A DNA stretch of 64,000 nt from assembly GCA_951406725.2 (NCBI GenBank), contig OX597818.1, forward strand, positions 39,308,001 through 39,372,000, read 5' to 3'. The position numbers are program-made. The DNA is from Octopus vulgaris (Eukaryota). Shown here piece after piece: positions 1 through 48,499 of this stretch; positions within the stretch are counted from its first letter, which is position 1; every line of letters begins with the position of its first letter.

Positions 1-3000
1 TATTTTACTCTTTCATTTCTTGATATTTTAATTTTCTTACCTTCCAGGATGTGCTAACTTATTCTATCATACAAACCAGTGATTGTCAGAAGTATTTCTA
101 CATAAAACCAAGTACAGGAGAGATATTTGTACGAGAAGTGTTACCATCTACAAATAGAACATTTGATGTAAGTACAGATTCAGATCAAGATCTATCTAAA
201 CCTTAAATATGTTTTGTAGGTGTATGTGTGTGTATGTGATAAATTTGTCATGTTTTACTGTCCTATAAGTCTATTTGATTTATTTCGTAGAACTCATTTA
301 AAAACTACATTATTTTACCTACAGATTGTAATGTGTGCTGTTGAGAGACCCTATATGTAGTGTGATCTGTTAGAAATATCAACTAAATCTTCTTCAAATC
401 ACTTCCCATTGTCTTCTGTAAAGAAAATTTTACATAATATAGTTCTGCATATCCCTAAGTAGACAAGATGATTAAGGCTAGAAAGCCTTAGATTATAGGT
501 TTGTCTAATCAGATAGTATTTTCTTTTTTTATATGCCCAGGCCTATTCCCCATTTTTTTTAGGAGTGGGTAGCCACAAGACACACACCAGGTATTCCATT
601 CATTTTTGAGCTCAAAGAGGTGGGCCCTGTGCTATGCTCAGGTCAGGTATAGAACACAACCTCCAATATCAGCAGCAGGGCCCGACAGCATATGCTGGTT
701 TACTCCTGCCACATCATGCTGGTTCCACACCCCTTGAGTAACATCAAATTCACTCATCCATTCACAAACACTCTCCAAGCTTTCCTATCAGTTATAAACT
801 CTCTTGCCTCTCTCATTCCAACATCTCTAACCACCAAAGCCTTCCTCACTCCATCCATCCACACAAACCAAAATCTACCTCTGGTTCTGCTGTCTACCAC
901 TTCTGCCTTTATTACCCTCCTTACTATCTGCTCCTTATCCATCCTCTCCATGTGGCCAAACCACCTCAACATTCGTCTATCCATTTTAGTGTTAGTTTTT
1001 CTCTCATTCCTGCTCACCTTTGCACCTCCTCATTCCTCATCCTGTCCATCCATGCCACACCAACCATAGCCCTCAGACATCTAGTTGTCTCCTTTCTACC
1101 TTTCTTAGCCCCCACATCTCTGCACCATATAACATTGTCGGCACAATCACACCTTCATACACACCATTTTTGCTTTCATACTCAACCTTTTATCTCTCGG
1201 CATACCTTTCAAAACTCCAAGTATCTTACTCTCCTCCCTCACTCTGTATCCCACTTCTTCAGCCAACCCCCATTCACCGTCACTTGTAATCCCAGATACT
1301 TAAAACCACTCACCTCCTCTAACATTTTGCCATTTATACTCACATTTATCCTACCAGCCATTCCATCTCTCGAACATCTCATCACTTTACTCTTAGCTAC
1401 ATTCACTTTCAGTTTCCTCCTCTCACACCCTCTTCCAAACTCTGCCACCAGTCTCCCCAGTTGCTTTTCTGAATCCACCACCAGTGCTGTATCATCAGCA
1501 AACAACAACTGACTCACCTGCCATTTCTCTCCATTTTCTCCCACCATTTGGGCTCCCCTACCAAAGGTTCTAGCATTTACCTCTCTCACCACACCATCCA
1601 TATATAAATTAAACAGCCCCAGAGACATTACACAACCCTATCTTAACCCCACCTTCACATCAACCTACTCACTTACTTCCCCACCTACCCTAACACATGC
1701 CCTACTTTCTCTATAAAACCTCTGAACAGCTCTCAACAATCTACCATCTACTCCATACAACCGCAACACCTGCCACATTGCATCCCTATTCACACGGTCA
1801 TATGCCTTACCTAGGTCCATAAAGGCCCAATACACCTCCTTCTCTTTTGCAAAAAACTTCTTACTATAAATATTGGATCTGCACACTCACTTCCACTCTT
1901 AAAACTGCACTGCTCCTCCCCTAGTACACTCTCTATCTGGTTCCTCACCCTTACAATCAGAATTCTCCCCTACAGTTGATCAAACACACACAACAGACTT
2001 ATACCCCTAAAATTTCCATGCTCACATTTATTCCCCTTGTACAGTGACACTATACAGGCACTACACAGTGGCACTATACAGGCACTACACAGTGGCACTA
2101 TACAGGCACTACACAGTGGCACTATACAGGCACTACACAATGGCACTATTCAGGCACTACACAGTGGCACTATACAGGCACTAGACAGTGGAACTATACA
2201 GGCACTAAACAGTGGCACTATACAGGCACTACACCGGTCCTTTGGTACTCTTCCCGCCATATAACAAGCATTCATAAGCTTCACTAACCATTCAGTTATT
2301 GTCATTCCTCCTGTCTTTAGGCATTCCACTGTACACCCATCTTTAGCTGGTGCCTTGTTGTTTGCCATCTTCTGCAAGGATTCCCTCACCTCCTCCCTTC
2401 CAGCTGCACTGTAGATCCATTTCCCAACAACTAGCATTCTCCTCTCTCCTCCTACAGTGGTTAATCAGATTGTACCTGAAGTTAAACAATGCCAACAACA
2501 ACCTTAAGTGTTGTTTCCATTAAAAGATTCTAAATAGTAAGCAATCTAAGCTTGAAATATATATTCATTCTATTAATAAATTATTTCATATATATGTCTT
2601 TGTTTCCTTATCTATATAAAGCTTCAAACATATGCACAAATATTAAAAAAAACATCTGTATGCATTTTATATATATACATATGTATGTATTTGTATATCT
2701 TTCCTCATTCTGTATATTTGTCACTTAATAAGTTTTTTGCACACTTGGAGTGGTCGGCGTTAGGAAGGGCATCCAGCAATAAAAACCATGCCAGATCAGA
2801 TTGGAGTCTGGTGCAGCTTGCCATCTCTGGTCAAACCGTCCAACCCATGCCAAAACAGACACAGAAGCATGGTGCAGTTTTCTGCCAGGCCAGCACCTGT
2901 CAAACCATTCCACTCAAGCAGCATAGAAGGAGGACATTAAACGATGATAATGATGATGATGATGATATATATATATATATATATATATTTATAGCTATCA

Positions 3001-3206
3001 CTTGAAGTCCAGATGAGGAGACAGATAGTGATGACGTGGTTGTACAGTTAACAAATTTGCTTTTCAACCACATAGTTTTAGATTCAGTCCAACAATGTGA
3101 CACCTTGGGCAAGTGCCTTTTACTATAGACTCAGGTCAACCAAAGCCTTGTGAGTGAATTTGGTAGAAACAGAAAGAAGCTCATCATGTATATAAGTGTG
3201 TGTGTG

Positions 3207-45600: not shown

Positions 45601-48499
45601 ACAAGTTTCATTGGTAATCAAGTAAACGTAAGTTTTCTATAGATTTCTGTTTGTTTGTTTTACTTTCTCTCCTAAAATATTTTACAATATTCAAGCATTA
45701 TCTCAGATATTAACCAAATTTTTTTTTGTTCTCATCATTGTTATTACTATTATAAAAAAACTGTGTATTTGGATTTACTTGTGTCTCATGCATAGTAATG
45801 AAAACTAACAATTCTTTACAGAGCATCATATAACTTTGGTTATGCTTTCTATGTCAAAAACAGACTTATTTTATTCTACACCAGAAAATTAGTAAACCAT
45901 TAATTCTAATGACTGGTCATATTTTCAACGAATATGAAGAATTAATCTCCAAGTTTTAGAACTCTTTAATCAATGGCCTTATTTTTTTATTTCTTTTCTT
46001 TTATATTCCAGTTAACTGTGATAGCTACTGACCAGTCCCCTCAACCAATGTCTGGTTCTACCCTTGTTATTGTCAACATTGAACGAAATAGCTATCCACC
46101 AGTTTTGCAACCCACCAGTGCCAGTGAATCAATAATGACTACTGCCCTTCGAAGCAGGACCATTTTGCAGTTACAAGTTAGTGATCAAGACAGGTCTTTA
46201 AATGTAAGTAAGCCATTTAAATTTTGTTCTTACTCTTTACTCTTTTACTTGTTTCAGTCATTTGACTGCGGCCATGCTGGAGCACCGCCTTTAATCGAGC
46301 AACTCGACTCCAGGACTTAATCTTTGTAAGCCCAATACTTATTCTATCGGTCTCTTTGCCGAACCGCTAAGTGATGGGGACATAAACACACCAGCATCAG
46401 CTGTCAAGCAATGTTGGGGGGACAAACACACACATATAAATATATACATATATTCGACGGGCTTCTTTCAGTTTCCATCTACCAAATCCACTCGCAAGGC
46501 TTTGGTCGGCCTGAGGCTATAGTAAAAGACACTTGCCCAAGGTGCCACGCAGTGGGACTGAACCCGGAACCATGTGGTTGGTAAACAAACTACTTACCAC
46601 ACAGCCACTCCTCCTCTTGTTCAGTTTTAGAATTTTTTTTGCTTTGAACCAGCTGCATTTGGTTTTCTGTCTTGCTGAAATGATGCTACTCAAAAGATTA
46701 ATTAAAAGGTGCCATTATAAAATAGAACAATTTGAAAATATCCTAGAAGTTTTCAACAGAAAAAAAATATTTAAAAAAAAACAGATTTTATTATGCAAAA
46801 AACAAAAAGTTAAGTAAATACGGCATTGGATTACCTTCTCTTCATGGATGAGTTCAAAATGTGTTGCAAGCATTTTGTTCTGTTTTTGAGTCTCAGACTT
46901 GACCCTAAATTTTACCTGTTCACCTAGCTATTGAAAATATACCCCAGAATTTCAAAGAAACTGTCAAAAGAGTTGATGACTCTCAAAACATGTCTTTTAT
47001 CTTAAGTCCAAAGGATGGGGTGGGGGGGTTCTACGCATCTTTGCTCAACATCATATGTGTAGCAACTTGAATCTCCCTCGAATTGTGCCTTGCCATCTTA
47101 GAAGAAGAAAGTAACACTGGATGGCTTTGCACTGTACTTATCATCATCATCATCGTTTAACGTCCGCTTTCCATGCTAGCATGGGTTGGATGGTTCAACT
47201 GGGGTCTGGGAAGCCCGAAGGCTGCACCAGGCCACTCAGATCTGGCAGTGTTTCTACAGCTGGAAGACCTTCCTAACACCAACCACTCCGTGAGTGTAGT
47301 GGGTGCTTTTTATGTGCCAACGACTCAGGTGCCAGACGAGGCTGGCGAACAGCTACGATCGGATGGTGTTTGTTACGTGCCACCAGCACGGAGGCCAGTC
47401 GATGTGGTACTGGCTACGGCCACGTTCAGATGGTTTTCTTATGTGCCACCGGCTCTGGTACCACAAAACTACAAATTCCATCGATGTTGATCGATTTTGA
47501 TTTGATTCTTTGATTTTGATTTTGTACTTAATAAATGAAAAATGAGATGGTTACAACTGGAACATCTTTCATCATTATTCGGTTCTGAATGAGATGAACC
47601 GATCTGGGGTTAAACAGCAGCAACATTTCTTTTATTAGGAAAGGCAACATTTGATAAAAGCTTCATTAATATTTGTTATGAGTCTAATTGCCAAAATCTC
47701 TAAAATATTATTAATGAAAATTGATTTTAATTAGAATTTGTTGTTTGACTTTGACTATTTTAACCAATTTTTAAAATACTTTTTCTAAATCAAAACTTAA
47801 ATATGTTAGAACTTTAAGTATAAAGCCATTTTTTCTTAATTTCAGAATCCAAATGGAGAAGTTATACTGACAATACCTGATATTTATGTTGATGCCAAAA
47901 GATATTTTGCTGTTACAAATCAAGGGGTTATATACTTAGCAAATACTCTATCAGGTACAAGCAGCAAGGTGTACAATGTAAGTCAACACTAAATTAATAA
48001 TTTTTTCTTGAATATCTTGATGTGAGTGCATTATGATCAGATTGTTTAATTTTTTACCAGATAGTTTACTTTAGTGGTACACTTCATCCAGATGTAACAC
48101 TCCACCACTTAGCACTTTAGGCATCTTTAACAGAATTCACGCTGCTGCAAGTTTTTGAGCCAGATCTCGAGCAGCACTGTATTTTCTTTTCTCCTTTCCA
48201 CCAGTCTCAAAGACTCAGTAAATGGTCATGAGCACTACCTTCCCATCTGATTATAAGAGAAAAACAAAATCCAGTCATAGTACAGAAGAAAAGAAACCAT
48301 TCAAGTTTTAAGTTGCTACATGCTCTTTGATGCATGGGCTAATGACTTGCTATTTTATTATTTTGCCTCTTGAATAAATCACTACATTATCCTCTGCCTC
48401 TCATAGTCTGCTAGTTACATTAAAAGTTTTCTTACATCCTCTCTCATTAATTAGCCACATTTCATGAAGTGTGCTAAAGACTCTGCCAGTTAGGCACAT

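What the first reader, a model, noticed from the sequence alone, without database searches (positions are those of the whole stretch)
48..47977. Cassette-built cadherin: 25 consecutive phase-0 exons in strict short/long alternation, so any adjacent pair can be dropped in frame
Seen: exon lengths run 120,189,129,183,129,183,132,183,123,183,129,189,126,183,132,186,111,183,144,183,114,195,117,192,132 and every intron to exon 26 is phase 0. Long exons straddle the domain linker (strands F-G of one repeat, A-B of the next); short exons carry the middle strands. Seven long exons are exactly 183 nt despite low sequence identity. Known: clustered protocadherins and Fat genes usually encode many repeats in one large exon, so this is a different architecture. 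Inference: the gene grew by repeated duplication of a two-exon module. Skipping any even run of exons would yield a shorter ectodomain with a chimeric but correctly ordered domain, a possible splice-tunable length or recognition code. Whether this is used in vivo cannot be read from DNA.
Basis: partly seen in the sequence, partly recalled or inferred. Interest (0 to 1): 0.75.

Follow-up and report, generated by a model that had tools for sequence, protein, structure and literature searches.

The report
Giant octopus cadherin: two exons per repeat
This is the membrane-near half of an octopus giant cadherin gene in which every cadherin repeat is cut into a short and a long exon at the same two places; the pattern is real, but it looks like an old duplication relic made of ordinary, always-included exons rather than a splicing switch.

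Summary
All have AG/GT borders, all are multiples of three, and short and long exons alternate strictly. Long exons carry strands F-G, the linker and A-B; short exons carry C-D-E. The regular pattern ends at exon 26.

The gene is the counterpart of an annotated Octopus bimaculoides cadherin (XP_052824185.1; older model of 5454 aa with at least 49 repeats). It is probably the published giant sucker cadherin with 77 EC domains. These public models abut the exons exactly at 21 of 24 junctions. In 8 of 8 bivalve and gastropod relatives, 7-13 of the 25 exons hit one collinear diagonal, so these repeats predate the molluscan classes. The 183-nt length reflects a 61-residue segment that is modal across the family.

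I found no evidence of tunable splicing. There are no spare exon copies, splice sites are uniformly strong, and pair-skipping would make chimeric domains from parts about 24% identical. No RNA data could be examined.

Verdict: a real, tidy but ordinary gene architecture in a known gene. A side observation is that the family replaces the calcium-binding DXNDN linker with RNxxxPxF.

The parts
48..167 (+). Exon 1 in window (short, 120 nt, phase 0-0); strands C-D-E of a cadherin repeat. The gene continues upstream of the window.
   Evidence: AG|..|GTAAGT. Pfam Cadherin profile positions 31-59, E=0.02. Best hit in P0227 at residue 3736, abutting E2.
3733..3921 (+). Exon 2 (long, 189 nt): strands F-G, linker (TTNDNRPPVF), strands A-B.
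   Evidence: AG|..|GTAAGT. Member of long-exon alignment A2. P0227 residue 3776, exact abutment.
6629..6757 (+). Exon 3 (short, 129 nt).
   Evidence: AG|..|GTGAGT. Pfam Cadherin 31-61, E=0.053. P0227 residue 3839.
9328..9510 (+). Exon 4 (long, 183 nt).
   Evidence: AG|..|GTAAGT. P0227 residue 3882, 81% identity.
11054..11182 (+). Exon 5 (short, 129 nt).
   Evidence: AG|..|GTAAGT. P0227 residue 3943, 87% identity.
12699..12881 (+). Exon 6 (long, 183 nt).
   Evidence: AG|..|GTAAGT. P0227 residue 3986, 77% identity.
15092..15223 (+). Exon 7 (short, 132 nt).
   Evidence: AG|..|GTAAGT. P0227 residue 4047.
18236..18418 (+). Exon 8 (long, 183 nt).
   Evidence: AG|..|GTAAGC. P0227 residue 4091. A second AG 6 nt downstream is not the one used by P0227.
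19893..20015 (+). Exon 9 (short, 123 nt).
   Evidence: AG|..|GTAAGT. P0227 residue 4152, 93% identity.
21898..22080 (+). Exon 10 (long, 183 nt).
   Evidence: AG|..|GTAAGA. P0227 residue 4193, 85% identity.
24333..24461 (+). Exon 11 (short, 129 nt). Absent from the old O. bimaculoides model P0227.
   Evidence: AG|..|GTAAGT. Pfam Cadherin 29-59, E=0.019. On the collinear diagonal in Potamilus, Gigantopelta and Sinanodonta.
26149..26337 (+). Exon 12 (long, 189 nt). Absent from P0227.
   Evidence: AG|..|GTAACT. On the collinear diagonal in 8 of 8 mollusc relatives. No annotated protein of 112-2000 aa found with it.
28685..28810 (+). Exon 13 (short, 126 nt).
   Evidence: AG|..|GTAAGT. Pfam Cadherin 27-68, E=3.3e-5. 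P0227 residue 4300.
29605..29787 (+). Exon 14 (long, 183 nt).
   Evidence: AG|..|GTAAGT. Pfam Cadherin 69-93, E=7.9e-4. 85% identity to P0001 residues 2-48.
30504..30635 (+). Exon 15 (short, 132 nt).
   Evidence: AG|..|GTAATT. Pfam Cadherin 26-67. P0001 residues 49-92, 87% identity.
31722..31907 (+). Exon 16 (long, 186 nt).
   Evidence: AG|..|GTGAGT. Pfam Cadherin 69-93, E=2.2e-5. P0001 residues 93-154. Model strands 90-99, 106-116, 127-133, 141-144.
33418..33528 (+). Exon 17 (short, 111 nt).
   Evidence: AG|..|GTAAGT. P0001 residues 155-191. Model strands 157-161, 168-170, 175-178.
35557..35739 (+). Exon 18 (long, 183 nt).
   Evidence: AG|..|GTAAGC. P0001 residues 192-252, 94% identity.
38579..38722 (+). 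Exon 19 (short, 144 nt).
   Evidence: AG|..|GTAAGT. Pfam Cadherin 26-61, E=1.3e-4. P0001 residues 253-300.
39093..39275 (+). Exon 20 (long, 183 nt).
   Evidence: AG|..|GTAAGC. P0001 residues 301-361, 88% identity.
40889..41002 (+). Exon 21 (short, 114 nt).
   Evidence: AG|..|GTAAGT. P0001 residues 362-399, 95% identity.
42718..42912 (+). Exon 22 (long, 195 nt). The extra residues sit in the B-C loop.
   Evidence: AG|..|GTAAAT. Pfam Cadherin 1-27. P0001 residues 400-464. Residues 458-465 have low confidence in the model.
45511..45627 (+). Exon 23 (short, 117 nt).
   Evidence: AG|..|GTAAGT. P0001 residues 465-503.
46012..46203 (+). Exon 24 (long, 192 nt).
   Evidence: AG|..|GTAAGT. Pfam Cadherin 69-93. 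P0001 residues 504-567.
47846..47977 (+). Exon 25 (short, 132 nt). Last exon of the regular series.
   Evidence: AG|..|GTAAGT. P0001 residues 568-611, 64% identity.
50703..50824 (+). Exon 26 (122 nt, phase 0 in, phase 2 out). It starts like a long exon but is cut earlier.
   Evidence: AG|..|GTAAGT. Long-exon profile positions 1-26, E=0.0014. P0001 residues 612-651.
53563..53672 (+). Exon 27 (110 nt, phase 2 in, phase 1 out).
   Evidence: AG|..|GTAAAG. P0001 residues 651-689, 67% identity.
55161..55298 (+). Exon 28 (138 nt, phase 1 in, phase 1 out). Carries an IDYE motif (the LDRE position).
   Evidence: AG|..|GTATGT. P0001 residues 689-734.
56126..56283 (+). Exon 29 (158 nt, phase 1 in, phase 0 out). 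Has the only near-canonical linker in the window (NVNEHNPEF). The gene continues beyond the window.
   Evidence: AG|..|GTAAGT. P0001 residues 733-794.

Best explanation
The window holds 29 consecutive, most likely constitutive, coding exons of a very large single-pass cadherin of an octopod. It is the counterpart of O. bimaculoides XP_052824185.1 / UniParc UPI00071C9B73, and probably of the published 77-EC cadherin that is highly expressed in suckers.

The stretch corresponds to residues about 3736-5148 of a protein of at least 5454 residues. That is roughly the last 14 cadherin repeats before the membrane-near region.

In 12.5 successive repeats, each repeat of about 104 residues is interrupted by two phase-0 introns at fixed places. 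One lies in the B-C loop, just after the DxD position. The other lies three to four residues into strand F. This gives alternating exons of about 41 and about 61 codons.

The simplest origin is tandem duplication of a repeat that already carried both introns. For this part of the gene, that happened before the molluscan classes diverged. Since then each repeat has diverged to about 24% identity with its neighbours while keeping its length, phase and position. The alternation, the multiples of three and the recurring 183 nt are therefore inherited geometry of the cadherin fold.

Shown: the exons, phases, strand mapping, orthology and antiquity. Inferred: constitutive splicing, and duplication as the origin.

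The protein itself probably forms a long ectodomain whose linkers mostly do not bind calcium, because the DXNDN motif is replaced by RNxxxPxF. It is therefore likely to be bendable or compact rather than a calcium-stiffened rod.
For: - Exons and phases. Strand asymmetry of the blind scan, 22 candidates versus 1.
- Exon-by-exon hits to P0227 start exactly at the previous start plus the previous exon's length for 21 of 24 junctions among E1-E25. P0001 is collinear with E14-E29 at 64-95% identity. The Argonauta fragment P0074 aligns to P0001 residues 372-1100 in one stretch.
- Strand mapping: Pfam positions, PDB profile hits, and the AlphaFold2 model of P0001 (mean pLDDT 71.4). In that model 6 of 6 long-to-short borders fall in the loop after strand B, and 6 of 6 short-to-long borders fall 3-4 residues into strand F.
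- Antiquity: 7-13 of 25 exons lie on one diagonal in 8 of 8 mollusc relatives, with 0-1 of 2000 shuffles reaching that number.
- Length constraint: the 61-residue segment is modal across the family.
- No further exon copies in introns or on the - strand: all other hits have E>0.5, apart from exon 26.
- Gene size and identity: P0227 has 48 linker-profile hits. A 77-EC octopus cadherin expressed in suckers is reported in PMC6339937 and PMC6062618 (passages read).
- Linker motif counts. Calcium-free linkers as bending sites: PMC8325961 (passages read).
Against: - No transcript data were available, so constitutive inclusion is inferred only from gene models and splice-site quality.
- The old O. 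bimaculoides model P0227 lacks exons 11 and 12, a short-long pair. It carries instead 47 residues matching an open frame inside intron 12 (27821-27955). This could in principle reflect a real alternative transcript.
- A search with exon 12 found no annotated protein of 112-2000 aa.
- Intron positions in the mollusc relatives could not be examined, so it is not shown that the introns themselves are as old as the repeats.
- Identity with the published 77-EC cadherin is not proven. Wang & Ragsdale 2017 and Albertin et al. 2015 are not held.
- The window differs from O. bimaculoides by 5-36% per exon, so a close paralogue rather than the orthologue is not formally excluded.
Confidence: 0.75

Rival explanations
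1. One reading: the all-phase-0, two-exon periodicity is used. Regulated skipping of even runs of exons produces shorter ectodomains, with one chimeric but correctly ordered repeat at the join, which would tune length or recognition.
For: - All 25 exons are multiples of 3, so any skip stays in frame, and an even run keeps the strand order.
- The old O. bimaculoides model P0227 passes from E10 to E13 without E11+E12, which is exactly one short-long pair.
Against: - P0227 does not join E10 to E13 directly. It inserts 47 residues from intron 12 that run into a stop codon in the window (27941-27943), which is typical of a prediction error or an assembly gap.
- E12 has its collinear counterpart in 8 of 8 mollusc relatives.
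- 21 of 24 junctions are n to n+1 in the public models.
- Donors are uniformly strong: 22 of 25 are GTRAG.
- There are no duplicate or alternative exon copies.
- The borders lie inside domains, so every skip would fuse A-B of one repeat with C-G of another. These parts are 7-42% identical. This differs from titin- or nebulin-type arrays, where one exon equals one module (recalled).
- Annotated isoforms of relatives show no internal cassette loss. Oyster X1/X2/X3 are 3270/3267/3267 aa. The Nematostella isoforms stay collinear from residue 1 for 6955 and 6116 residues, so they differ only towards the C-terminus.
Confidence: 0.08
2. The regular pattern arose by independent intron gain at the same two sequence contexts in every repeat (parallel insertion at proto-splice sites), not by copying a two-exon unit.
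For: None obtained. The idea is raised only because the repeats are old and very diverged.
Against: - It would need 24 or more gains at just two homologous positions, all in phase 0. The long-exon start is in exact register: the conserved Asp is residue 7 in 8 of the 12 long exons, and the other 4 have no Asp at that aligned position.
- The exon-side bases at the borders are not a conserved proto-splice site: the last exon base is G in only 8 of 25.
- The last repeats of the same gene (E26-E29) have different intron positions and phases.
Confidence: 0.03
3. The two intron positions are older than this gene family. They were inherited from an intron-rich ancestral cadherin repeat shared with other cadherin branches, so the architecture says nothing specific about how this gene grew.
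For: - Intron-rich cadherin genes with deeply conserved intron sites exist. Spider type III cadherin genes have 34 introns, and 33 of the 34 sites are shared with other bilaterians (PMC5473995, passages read).
- The repeats in the window already existed in the molluscan ancestor.
Against: - Not tested.
- Within the same gene, the last repeats use other positions.
Confidence: 0.25

Closest known systems
[quoted passage not shown]
   Same: Collinear with E1-E10 and E13-E29 at 64-95% identity. Exon lengths are identical, and each hit starts exactly where the previous one ends. At least 49 repeats, one transmembrane helix and a short tail.
   Different: The window comes from another octopod, or from a close paralogue. 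E11 and E12 are missing from the old model. Identity with the published 77-EC gene and its sucker expression rests on review sentences only; the primary papers are not held.
Mollusc and brachiopod large cadherins auto-named 'protocadherin Fat 4(-like)' (Crassostrea gigas XP_034314269.1, Patella vulgata XP_050391949.2, Gigantopelta aegis XP_041364043.1, Solemya, Potamilus, Sinanodonta, Plakobranchus, Lingula XP_013411494.1)
   Same: 30-36% identical over the whole C-terminal 541 residues, including the membrane span and tail. The tail motif is conserved. Repeats are collinear one to one in the 8 mollusc proteins. Same RNxxxPxF linker and same 61-residue segment.
   Different: They are shorter, 2306-4445 aa against at least 5454. 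Exon 1 of the window maps to residue 1419 in oyster but 3736 in octopus, so the octopus gene has at least about 2300 extra residues upstream of the window. Lingula shares the tail but shows no repeat-by-repeat collinearity (3 of 25). Their intron positions are unknown.
Vertebrate and insect FAT / Dachsous giant cadherins
   Same: Tens of cadherin repeats and a single membrane pass. Some calcium-free linkers allow bending (PMC8325961, passages read).
   Different: A fish Fat4 representative carries 23 canonical D.N[DE]..P linkers against 1 here. No EGF or laminin-G domains in P0001, P0007 or P0075. Different tail.
Cadherin-23 / protocadherin-15
   Same: Long, many-exon cadherins. Short-exon profile hits are best to CDH23 structures. 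The model of P0001 has an alpha/beta domain next to the membrane, and PCDH15 EC9-MAD12 (6eet) gives the highest target TM-score in the list, 0.39.
   Different: A fish CDH23 has 22 canonical linkers. No sequence-level orthology is shown. The membrane-adjacent domain match is weak and lies outside the window.
Intron-rich classical (type III) cadherin genes
   Same: Roughly two introns per repeat, and deeply conserved intron sites (PMC5473995).
   Different: No report seen there of a strict two-position, all-phase-0 periodicity. Positions were not compared here.
Repeat genes built from symmetric exons (collagen 54-nt exons, nebulin, titin PEVK/Ig; recalled)
   Same: Long runs of in-phase exons produced by unit duplication. 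In-frame skipping is possible in principle.
   Different: In those genes an exon equals a structural unit. Here the borders lie inside the fold, so skipping makes a chimeric domain.

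Membership tests
Cadherin superfamily | Tandem extracellular cadherin (EC) repeats recognised by PF00028 | tested here: met
   11 of 25 single exons hit PF00028 at E<=0.053, at consistent profile positions. 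The long-exon profile hits solved cadherins at E=5.8e-76, and the short-exon profile at E=2.6e-7. P0001 hits PF00028 at E=1.3e-75 with 7 stretches. Foldseek of the P0001 model gives E=1.7e-41 to protocadherin ectodomains.
Cadherin superfamily | Calcium-binding linker motif DXNDN(xPxF) between repeats | tested here: not met
   0 of 12 long exons carry D.N[DE]; they read RN/KN/RR/HS...P.F, and only E2 keeps NDN. Across P0227 there is 1 canonical motif against 23 RN-type motifs.
Cadherin superfamily | Single membrane span after the repeats | tested here: met
   Seen in the orthologue, not in the window: P0001 has a helix at 972-1014 after the last repeats. It is conserved in the alignment A3.
FAT / FAT4 | EGF-like and laminin-G domains between the cadherin repeats and the membrane | tested here: not met
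   Pfam finds only cadherin-clan families in P0001, P0007 and P0075.
CELSR / Flamingo | Seven-pass adhesion-GPCR moiety with EGF, laminin-G and hormone-receptor domains | tested here: not met
   No 7tm_2, GAIN, EGF or laminin-G in P0001. The model shows one membrane helix. The RefSeq name is a best-hit label.
Clustered protocadherins | Six or seven repeats encoded in one large variable exon | tested here: not met
   Two exons per repeat over 12.5 repeats, and at least 49 repeats in the orthologue.
Octopus 77-EC giant cadherin (Wang & Ragsdale 2017) | More than 70 EC repeats in one protein | tested here: inconclusive
   P0227 is incomplete at the N-terminus and has 48 linker hits, i.e. at least 49 repeats. 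No longer octopus model was reachable: searches were capped at 5000 aa, and the representative search listed none.
Octopus 77-EC giant cadherin (Wang & Ragsdale 2017) | High expression in suckers | not testable with these tools
   No expression data available. Known only from review sentences.
Lophotrochozoan RN-linker large cadherins (working name, defined here) | Conserved membrane span and tail (FVEPP.FL..YETQSL.MYVPPDEA) plus RNxxxPxF linkers | tested here: met
   Tail conserved in 9 of 9 aligned proteins, including Lingula. RN-type motif counts are 9-24 per protein, against 0-2 in the Nematostella giant, fish Fat4 and fish CDH23. The tail lies outside the window; the linkers are in the window.
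Splice-tunable cassette arrays (titin/nebulin type) | Symmetric exons, so that skipping keeps the frame | tested here: met
   25 of 25 exons are multiples of 3.
Splice-tunable cassette arrays (titin/nebulin type) | Exon borders coincide with module borders | tested here: not met
   Borders fall in the B-C loop and inside strand F.
Splice-tunable cassette arrays (titin/nebulin type) | Isoforms that differ by whole cassettes | not testable with these tools
   No RNA data. The protein models show n to n+1 at 21 of 24 junctions, and the isoforms of relatives show no internal cassette loss.

The most novel reading that the evidence does not exclude
The octopus giant cadherin uses its 0-0-0 two-exon periodicity in vivo. 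Tissue-specific skipping of short-long exon pairs would shorten the ectodomain one repeat at a time. The missing E11+E12 pair in the 2015-era O. bimaculoides model would be a first trace of this. The RN-type, calcium-free linkers would tolerate the chimeric junction domains. That would make it a length-adjustable adhesion molecule in suckers and nervous tissue.
Probability: 0.07. Interest if true: 0.7.

Novelty: new member of a known kind. Interest (0 to 1): 0.3.

Why it matters
As it stands, this is a clean textbook example of how a giant repeat protein keeps the exon structure of its founding unit for more than half a billion years. It also gives a checked exon map for part of a gene that automatic pipelines name wrongly (as CELSR2-like or Fat4-like) and model incompletely.

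Two things would raise its value. The first is transcript evidence for in-register pair skipping. The second is a closer look at the family itself, which turned up as a by-product. It is a lophotrochozoan group of cadherins with 20 to 50 or more repeats, in which almost every linker has lost the calcium-binding DXNDN motif, while a strongly conserved cytoplasmic tail of unknown partners is kept. The family is enlarged upstream in octopus, where the protein is reported to be abundant in suckers.

Tried and rejected
1. Isoform comparison as a proxy for cassette skipping. The Nematostella giant cadherin isoforms (7723/7285/6411 aa) stay collinear from residue 1 for 6955 and 6116 residues, so they differ only towards the C-terminus. 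The oyster isoforms differ by 3 residues. This is uninformative for the octopus.
2. Co-duplication test. Similarity matrices of short exons and their neighbouring long exons are not significantly correlated (r=0.21, p=0.125; r=0.12, p=0.27). There is no neighbour or higher-order periodicity. The repeats are too diverged to recover a duplication order.
3. Search with exon 12 for an annotated protein containing E11/E12: none among proteins of 112-2000 aa. This is weak evidence, as the tool itself states.
4. Search for hidden or alternative exon copies with profiles of both exon classes over all six frames: none found.
5. Literature. Albertin et al. 2015 and Wang & Ragsdale 2017 are not held. Eight full-text searches found no description of this gene's exon structure or of an RN-linker family. 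Only two review sentences mention the cadherin with over 70, or 77, EC domains. The architecture may well be described in the paper I could not read.
6. Membrane-adjacent domain. Foldseek of the whole 1100-residue model is dominated by EC repeats. The PCDH15 EC9-MAD12 match (rank 47, TMt 0.39) is suggestive only.
7. Not done: joining the exons into a spliced protein for a search or a fold. Exons were searched one by one, and the public proteins P0001 and P0227 served as the continuous reference. Folding a chimeric skipped domain was left out for the same reason.
8. Could not be done: comparing intron positions in other species.
9. Complex prediction and the protein atlas were not used.

Full report
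**What is in the sequence**

The window has no N. It is AT-rich, with long microsatellites.

On the + strand I placed 25 exons between 48 and 47977. Every one is preceded by AG with a pyrimidine-rich tract and followed by GT. 16 of 25 donors are GTAAGT and 22 of 25 are GTRAG. Seven long exons are 183 nt.

A blind scan for AG / open frame divisible by 3 / GTRAG found 22 candidates on the + strand and 1 on the - strand. Of the 22, 20 are model exons and 2 are alternative borders of E8 and E19.

Introns are 370-3565 nt long, and the two intron classes do not differ in size (medians 1701 and 1926 nt).

After exon 25 the pattern breaks:
- Exon 26: 50703-50824, 122 nt, ends in phase 2.
- Exon 27: 53563-53672, 110 nt, phase 2 to 1.
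- Exon 28: 55161-55298, 138 nt, phase 1 to 1.
- Exon 29: 56126-56283, 158 nt, phase 1 to 0.

**A rule I kept**

Exons were searched one by one, or as alignments of the 13 short exons (A1) and the 12 long exons (A2). Public protein records served as the continuous reference.

**Are these cadherin pieces, and which pieces?**

Scanned alone against Pfam, 11 of 25 exons hit the Cadherin family (E 2.2e-5 to 0.053). None reaches the gathering score, as expected for fragments, and 14 of 25 have no Cadherin hit on their own. The hit positions are consistent:
- Short exons fall at profile positions about 26-68.
- Long exons fall at 69-93 with their first 24 residues (4 exons), or at 1-27 with their last part (1 exon).

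A profile of the long exons hits solved cadherin structures at E=5.8e-76 (CELSR1, 8vy2). Each matched stretch runs from the F-G region of one repeat, across the linker, to the DxD position of the next. The short-exon profile hits the middle of CDH23 and CDHR2 repeats, with best E=2.6e-7.

An AlphaFold2 model of the O. bimaculoides counterpart (mean pLDDT 71.4; repeats mostly 70-90) gives the strands directly. Each long exon holds four strands (F, G, then A, B of the next repeat), and each short exon holds three (C, D, E). In the model, 6 of 6 long-to-short borders lie in the loop after strand B. 6 of 6 short-to-long borders lie 3-4 residues into strand F.

**Which gene**

- Exon 14 found XP_052824185.1 of Octopus bimaculoides (P0001, 1100 aa, named 'CELSR2-like') at 85% identity. 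P0001 is collinear with exons 14-29 at 64-95% identity, and the alignment blocks end at my exon borders.
- The 90% cluster of P0001 also holds an older model with an incomplete N-terminus: 5454 aa, UniParc UPI00071C9B73 (P0227).
- Exon-by-exon BLAST against P0227 puts E1 at residue 3736. Each following exon starts exactly at the previous start plus the previous exon's length. This holds for 21 of 24 junctions among E1-E25; the exceptions are the three junctions around E11 and E12.
- P0227 has 48 hits of the linker profile, so at least 49 repeats.
- Two open reviews report an O. bimaculoides cadherin with 'over 70' or '77' EC domains that is highly expressed in suckers, citing Albertin 2015 and Wang & Ragsdale 2017 (PMC6062618 and PMC6339937, passages read). 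The primary papers are not held. I therefore call identity with that gene probable, not shown.
- The window differs from O. bimaculoides at 5-36% of residues per exon. It comes from another octopod, or less likely from a close paralogue.

**Exons 11 and 12**

P0227 lacks them. In their place it has 47 residues that match an open frame inside intron 12 (27821-27955, 74% identity). In the window that frame runs into a stop codon at 27941-27943.

Exon 12 has its best hit at the expected collinear place in 8 of 8 mollusc relatives, and exon 11 in 3 of 8. I therefore take E11 and E12 as real exons, and the old model as a prediction or assembly error.

It remains the only hint of a skipped short-long pair. 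A search with exon 12 found no annotated protein of 112-2000 aa.

**The family**

- The C-terminal 541 residues of P0001, including the membrane span and tail, match proteins of 2306-4445 aa from oyster, Solemya, Plakobranchus, Gigantopelta and Sinanodonta. Identity is 30-36% over 97-100% of the query.
- The representative search adds Patella, Potamilus and Lingula, plus an Argonauta fragment at 63% identity in a single stretch.
- Pfam finds only cadherin-clan domains in P0001, P0007 and P0075. There is no EGF, laminin-G or seven-pass domain, so the automatic names 'Fat 4' and 'CELSR2-like' are best-hit labels.
- The alignment shows a strongly conserved membrane span and tail.
- The canonical calcium-binding linker D.N[DE]..P occurs once in the 5454 residues of P0227. 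It occurs 1-5 times in the seven lophotrochozoan relatives counted, against 44 in the Nematostella giant cadherin, 23 in a fish Fat4 and 22 in a fish CDH23.
- The family instead has [RKQH]N...P.[FILV] 9-24 times per protein, against 0-2 in the others.
- In the window, 0 of 12 long exons has DXNDN.
- Calcium-free linkers are known bending points in DN-cadherin and other non-classical cadherins (PMC8325961, passages read). A bendable or compact ectodomain is therefore the likely consequence. This is inferred, not tested.

**How old are the repeats?**

I took each exon's best hit in each relative and asked how many fall on one diagonal, within 25 residues, using summed exon lengths only. The counts out of 25 were:

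| Relative | Exons on one diagonal |
|---|---|
| Oyster | 10 |
| Patella (two proteins) | 9 and 9 |
| Potamilus | 10 |
| Gigantopelta | 9 |
| Solemya | 7 |
| Sinanodonta | 10 |
| Plakobranchus | 13 |
| Lingula | 3 (chance level) |
| Nematostella | 3 (chance level) |

For the eight mollusc proteins, 0-1 of 2000 within-class shuffles reached the observed number, and the shuffle mean was about 3.

The series of repeats in the window was therefore already in place in the common ancestor of cephalopods, gastropods and bivalves. Exon 1 maps to residue 1419 in oyster and 3736 in octopus. The octopus enlargement therefore lies upstream, outside the window.

Among themselves the repeats are 23% (short exons) and 25% (long exons) identical on average. 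There is no neighbour effect, and similarity of short exons is not significantly correlated with that of their adjacent long exons.

**Why 183 nt recurs**

The segment equivalent to a long exon is 61 residues in:
- 19 of 34 full-length profile hits in P0227
- 13 of 18 in oyster
- 15 of 20 in Patella
- 23 of 32 in Gigantopelta
- 26 of 31 in Solemya

In canonical cadherins it is one residue longer. The constancy is a property of the fold: F, G, linker, A and B have little loop variation. Length variation sits in the C-D-E exon and in the B-C loop at the 3' end of long exons (E12, E16, E22, E24).

**Is it a splicing device?**

In favour:
- Every exon is symmetric in phase 0.
- There is the E11+E12 anomaly described above.

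Against:
- The public models join n to n+1 at 21 of 24 junctions, and the Argonauta fragment is continuous.
- Profiles of both exon classes find no further copies in introns or on the other strand.
- Splice sites are uniformly strong.
- Each repeat has kept its own identity since the molluscan ancestor.
- The borders are inside the fold, so any pair skip makes a domain from parts that are 7-42% identical.
- Annotated isoforms of relatives show no internal cassette loss.

No RNA data could be examined, so the idea is unsupported rather than refuted. I give it 0.08.

**Verdict**

The finding is accurate as a description. Its evolutionary inference, duplication of a two-exon unit, is the best explanation, but the event is ancient. 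The functional suggestion has no support.

The gene is annotated and has been noted in the literature for its size. I found no description of its exon periodicity in eight full-text searches, but I could not read the most relevant paper. Intron-rich cadherin genes are known (PMC5473995).

I rate it a new member of a known kind, interest 0.3. The more unusual item is the by-product: a lophotrochozoan family of very long cadherins with almost no canonical calcium-binding linkers.

Still unchecked: intron positions in other species, the gene upstream and downstream of the window, transcripts, and the closed metagenome and viral collections.

Noticed in passing
Long exons in window (e.g. 3733-3921, 29605-29787); P0227 and relatives P0007, P0075, P0010, P0008, P0091, P0101: The family replaces the calcium-binding linker DXNDNxPxF by RNxxxPxF, which is one residue shorter. 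There is 1 canonical motif in the 5454 residues of the octopus protein, against 22-44 in a fish CDH23, a fish Fat4 and a Nematostella giant cadherin. A whole 50-77-repeat ectodomain with calcium-free linkers would be unusual. I could not check whether this is already published.
   Followed up: partly
27821-27955 (+), inside intron 12: An open frame here is 74% identical at protein level to a 47-residue stretch that the old O. bimaculoides model has in place of exons 11-12. It is preceded by an AG, and in the window it ends in a stop at 27941-27943. This is probably a mispredicted exon. Its conservation is as high as that of exons 25-29 (64-74%), which may mean that the membrane-near repeats evolve almost neutrally between the two octopods.
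   Followed up: partly
50703-56283 (+), exons 26-29: The last repeats before the window's end use different intron positions and phases (0-2, 2-1, 1-1, 1-0). They also carry the only near-canonical linker (NVNEHNPEF) and an IDYE motif. They are the least conserved exons against O. bimaculoides.
   Followed up: partly
P0001 residues about 831-952 (beyond the window): The predicted structure shows an alpha/beta domain between the last cadherin repeat and the membrane helix. PCDH15 EC9-MAD12 (6eet) gives the highest target TM-score (0.39) in the Foldseek list. A membrane-adjacent domain like that of PCDH15/CDH23 is possible but not shown.
   Followed up: partly
P0001 residues about 960-1100 (beyond the window); alignment A3: The membrane span and cytoplasmic tail are strongly conserved from octopus to Lingula (..FVEPP.FL..YETQSL.MYVPPDEA..). 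They match no Pfam family, so the partners are unknown.
   Followed up: no
13211-13593, 26827-27432, 31957-32140, 40452-40764, 42981-43161, 47101-47520, 51116-51428, 52560-52764, 55698-55814, 2903-2957: An interspersed repeat of about 310 bp occurs in many introns, in both orientations. Self-comparison gave 16 matching pieces at 77-91% identity to the copy at 47101-47520. It is SINE-like and was not classified.
   Followed up: partly
61213-62847 (-); 1242-1637 (-): A 545-residue open frame with a reverse-transcriptase domain (RVT_1, E=5.6e-31) lies downstream of exon 29, and a reverse-transcriptase fragment (E=1.5e-13) lies in intron 1. These are LINE-type elements on the opposite strand.
   Followed up: partly
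33685-34683 (+); 20724-21417 (+): Broken mariner-type transposase remnants lie in introns 17 and 9. The first has a Mos1 HTH domain (HTH_48, E=1.1e-11). The second gave no Pfam hit, and its mariner label rests on recall.
   Followed up: partly
about 58000-61130 and 62850-63490: Roughly 3 kb of (TA)n-rich microsatellite (GC 5% in 58001-60000) and a second block lie in the intron after exon 29. Shorter (CA)n and (TA)n tracts occur in many introns.
   Followed up: no
1980-2261 (+), intron 1: A tandem repeat with a 24-nt unit, read off a periodic open frame (SGTIQALH repeated). It was not analysed further.
   Followed up: no
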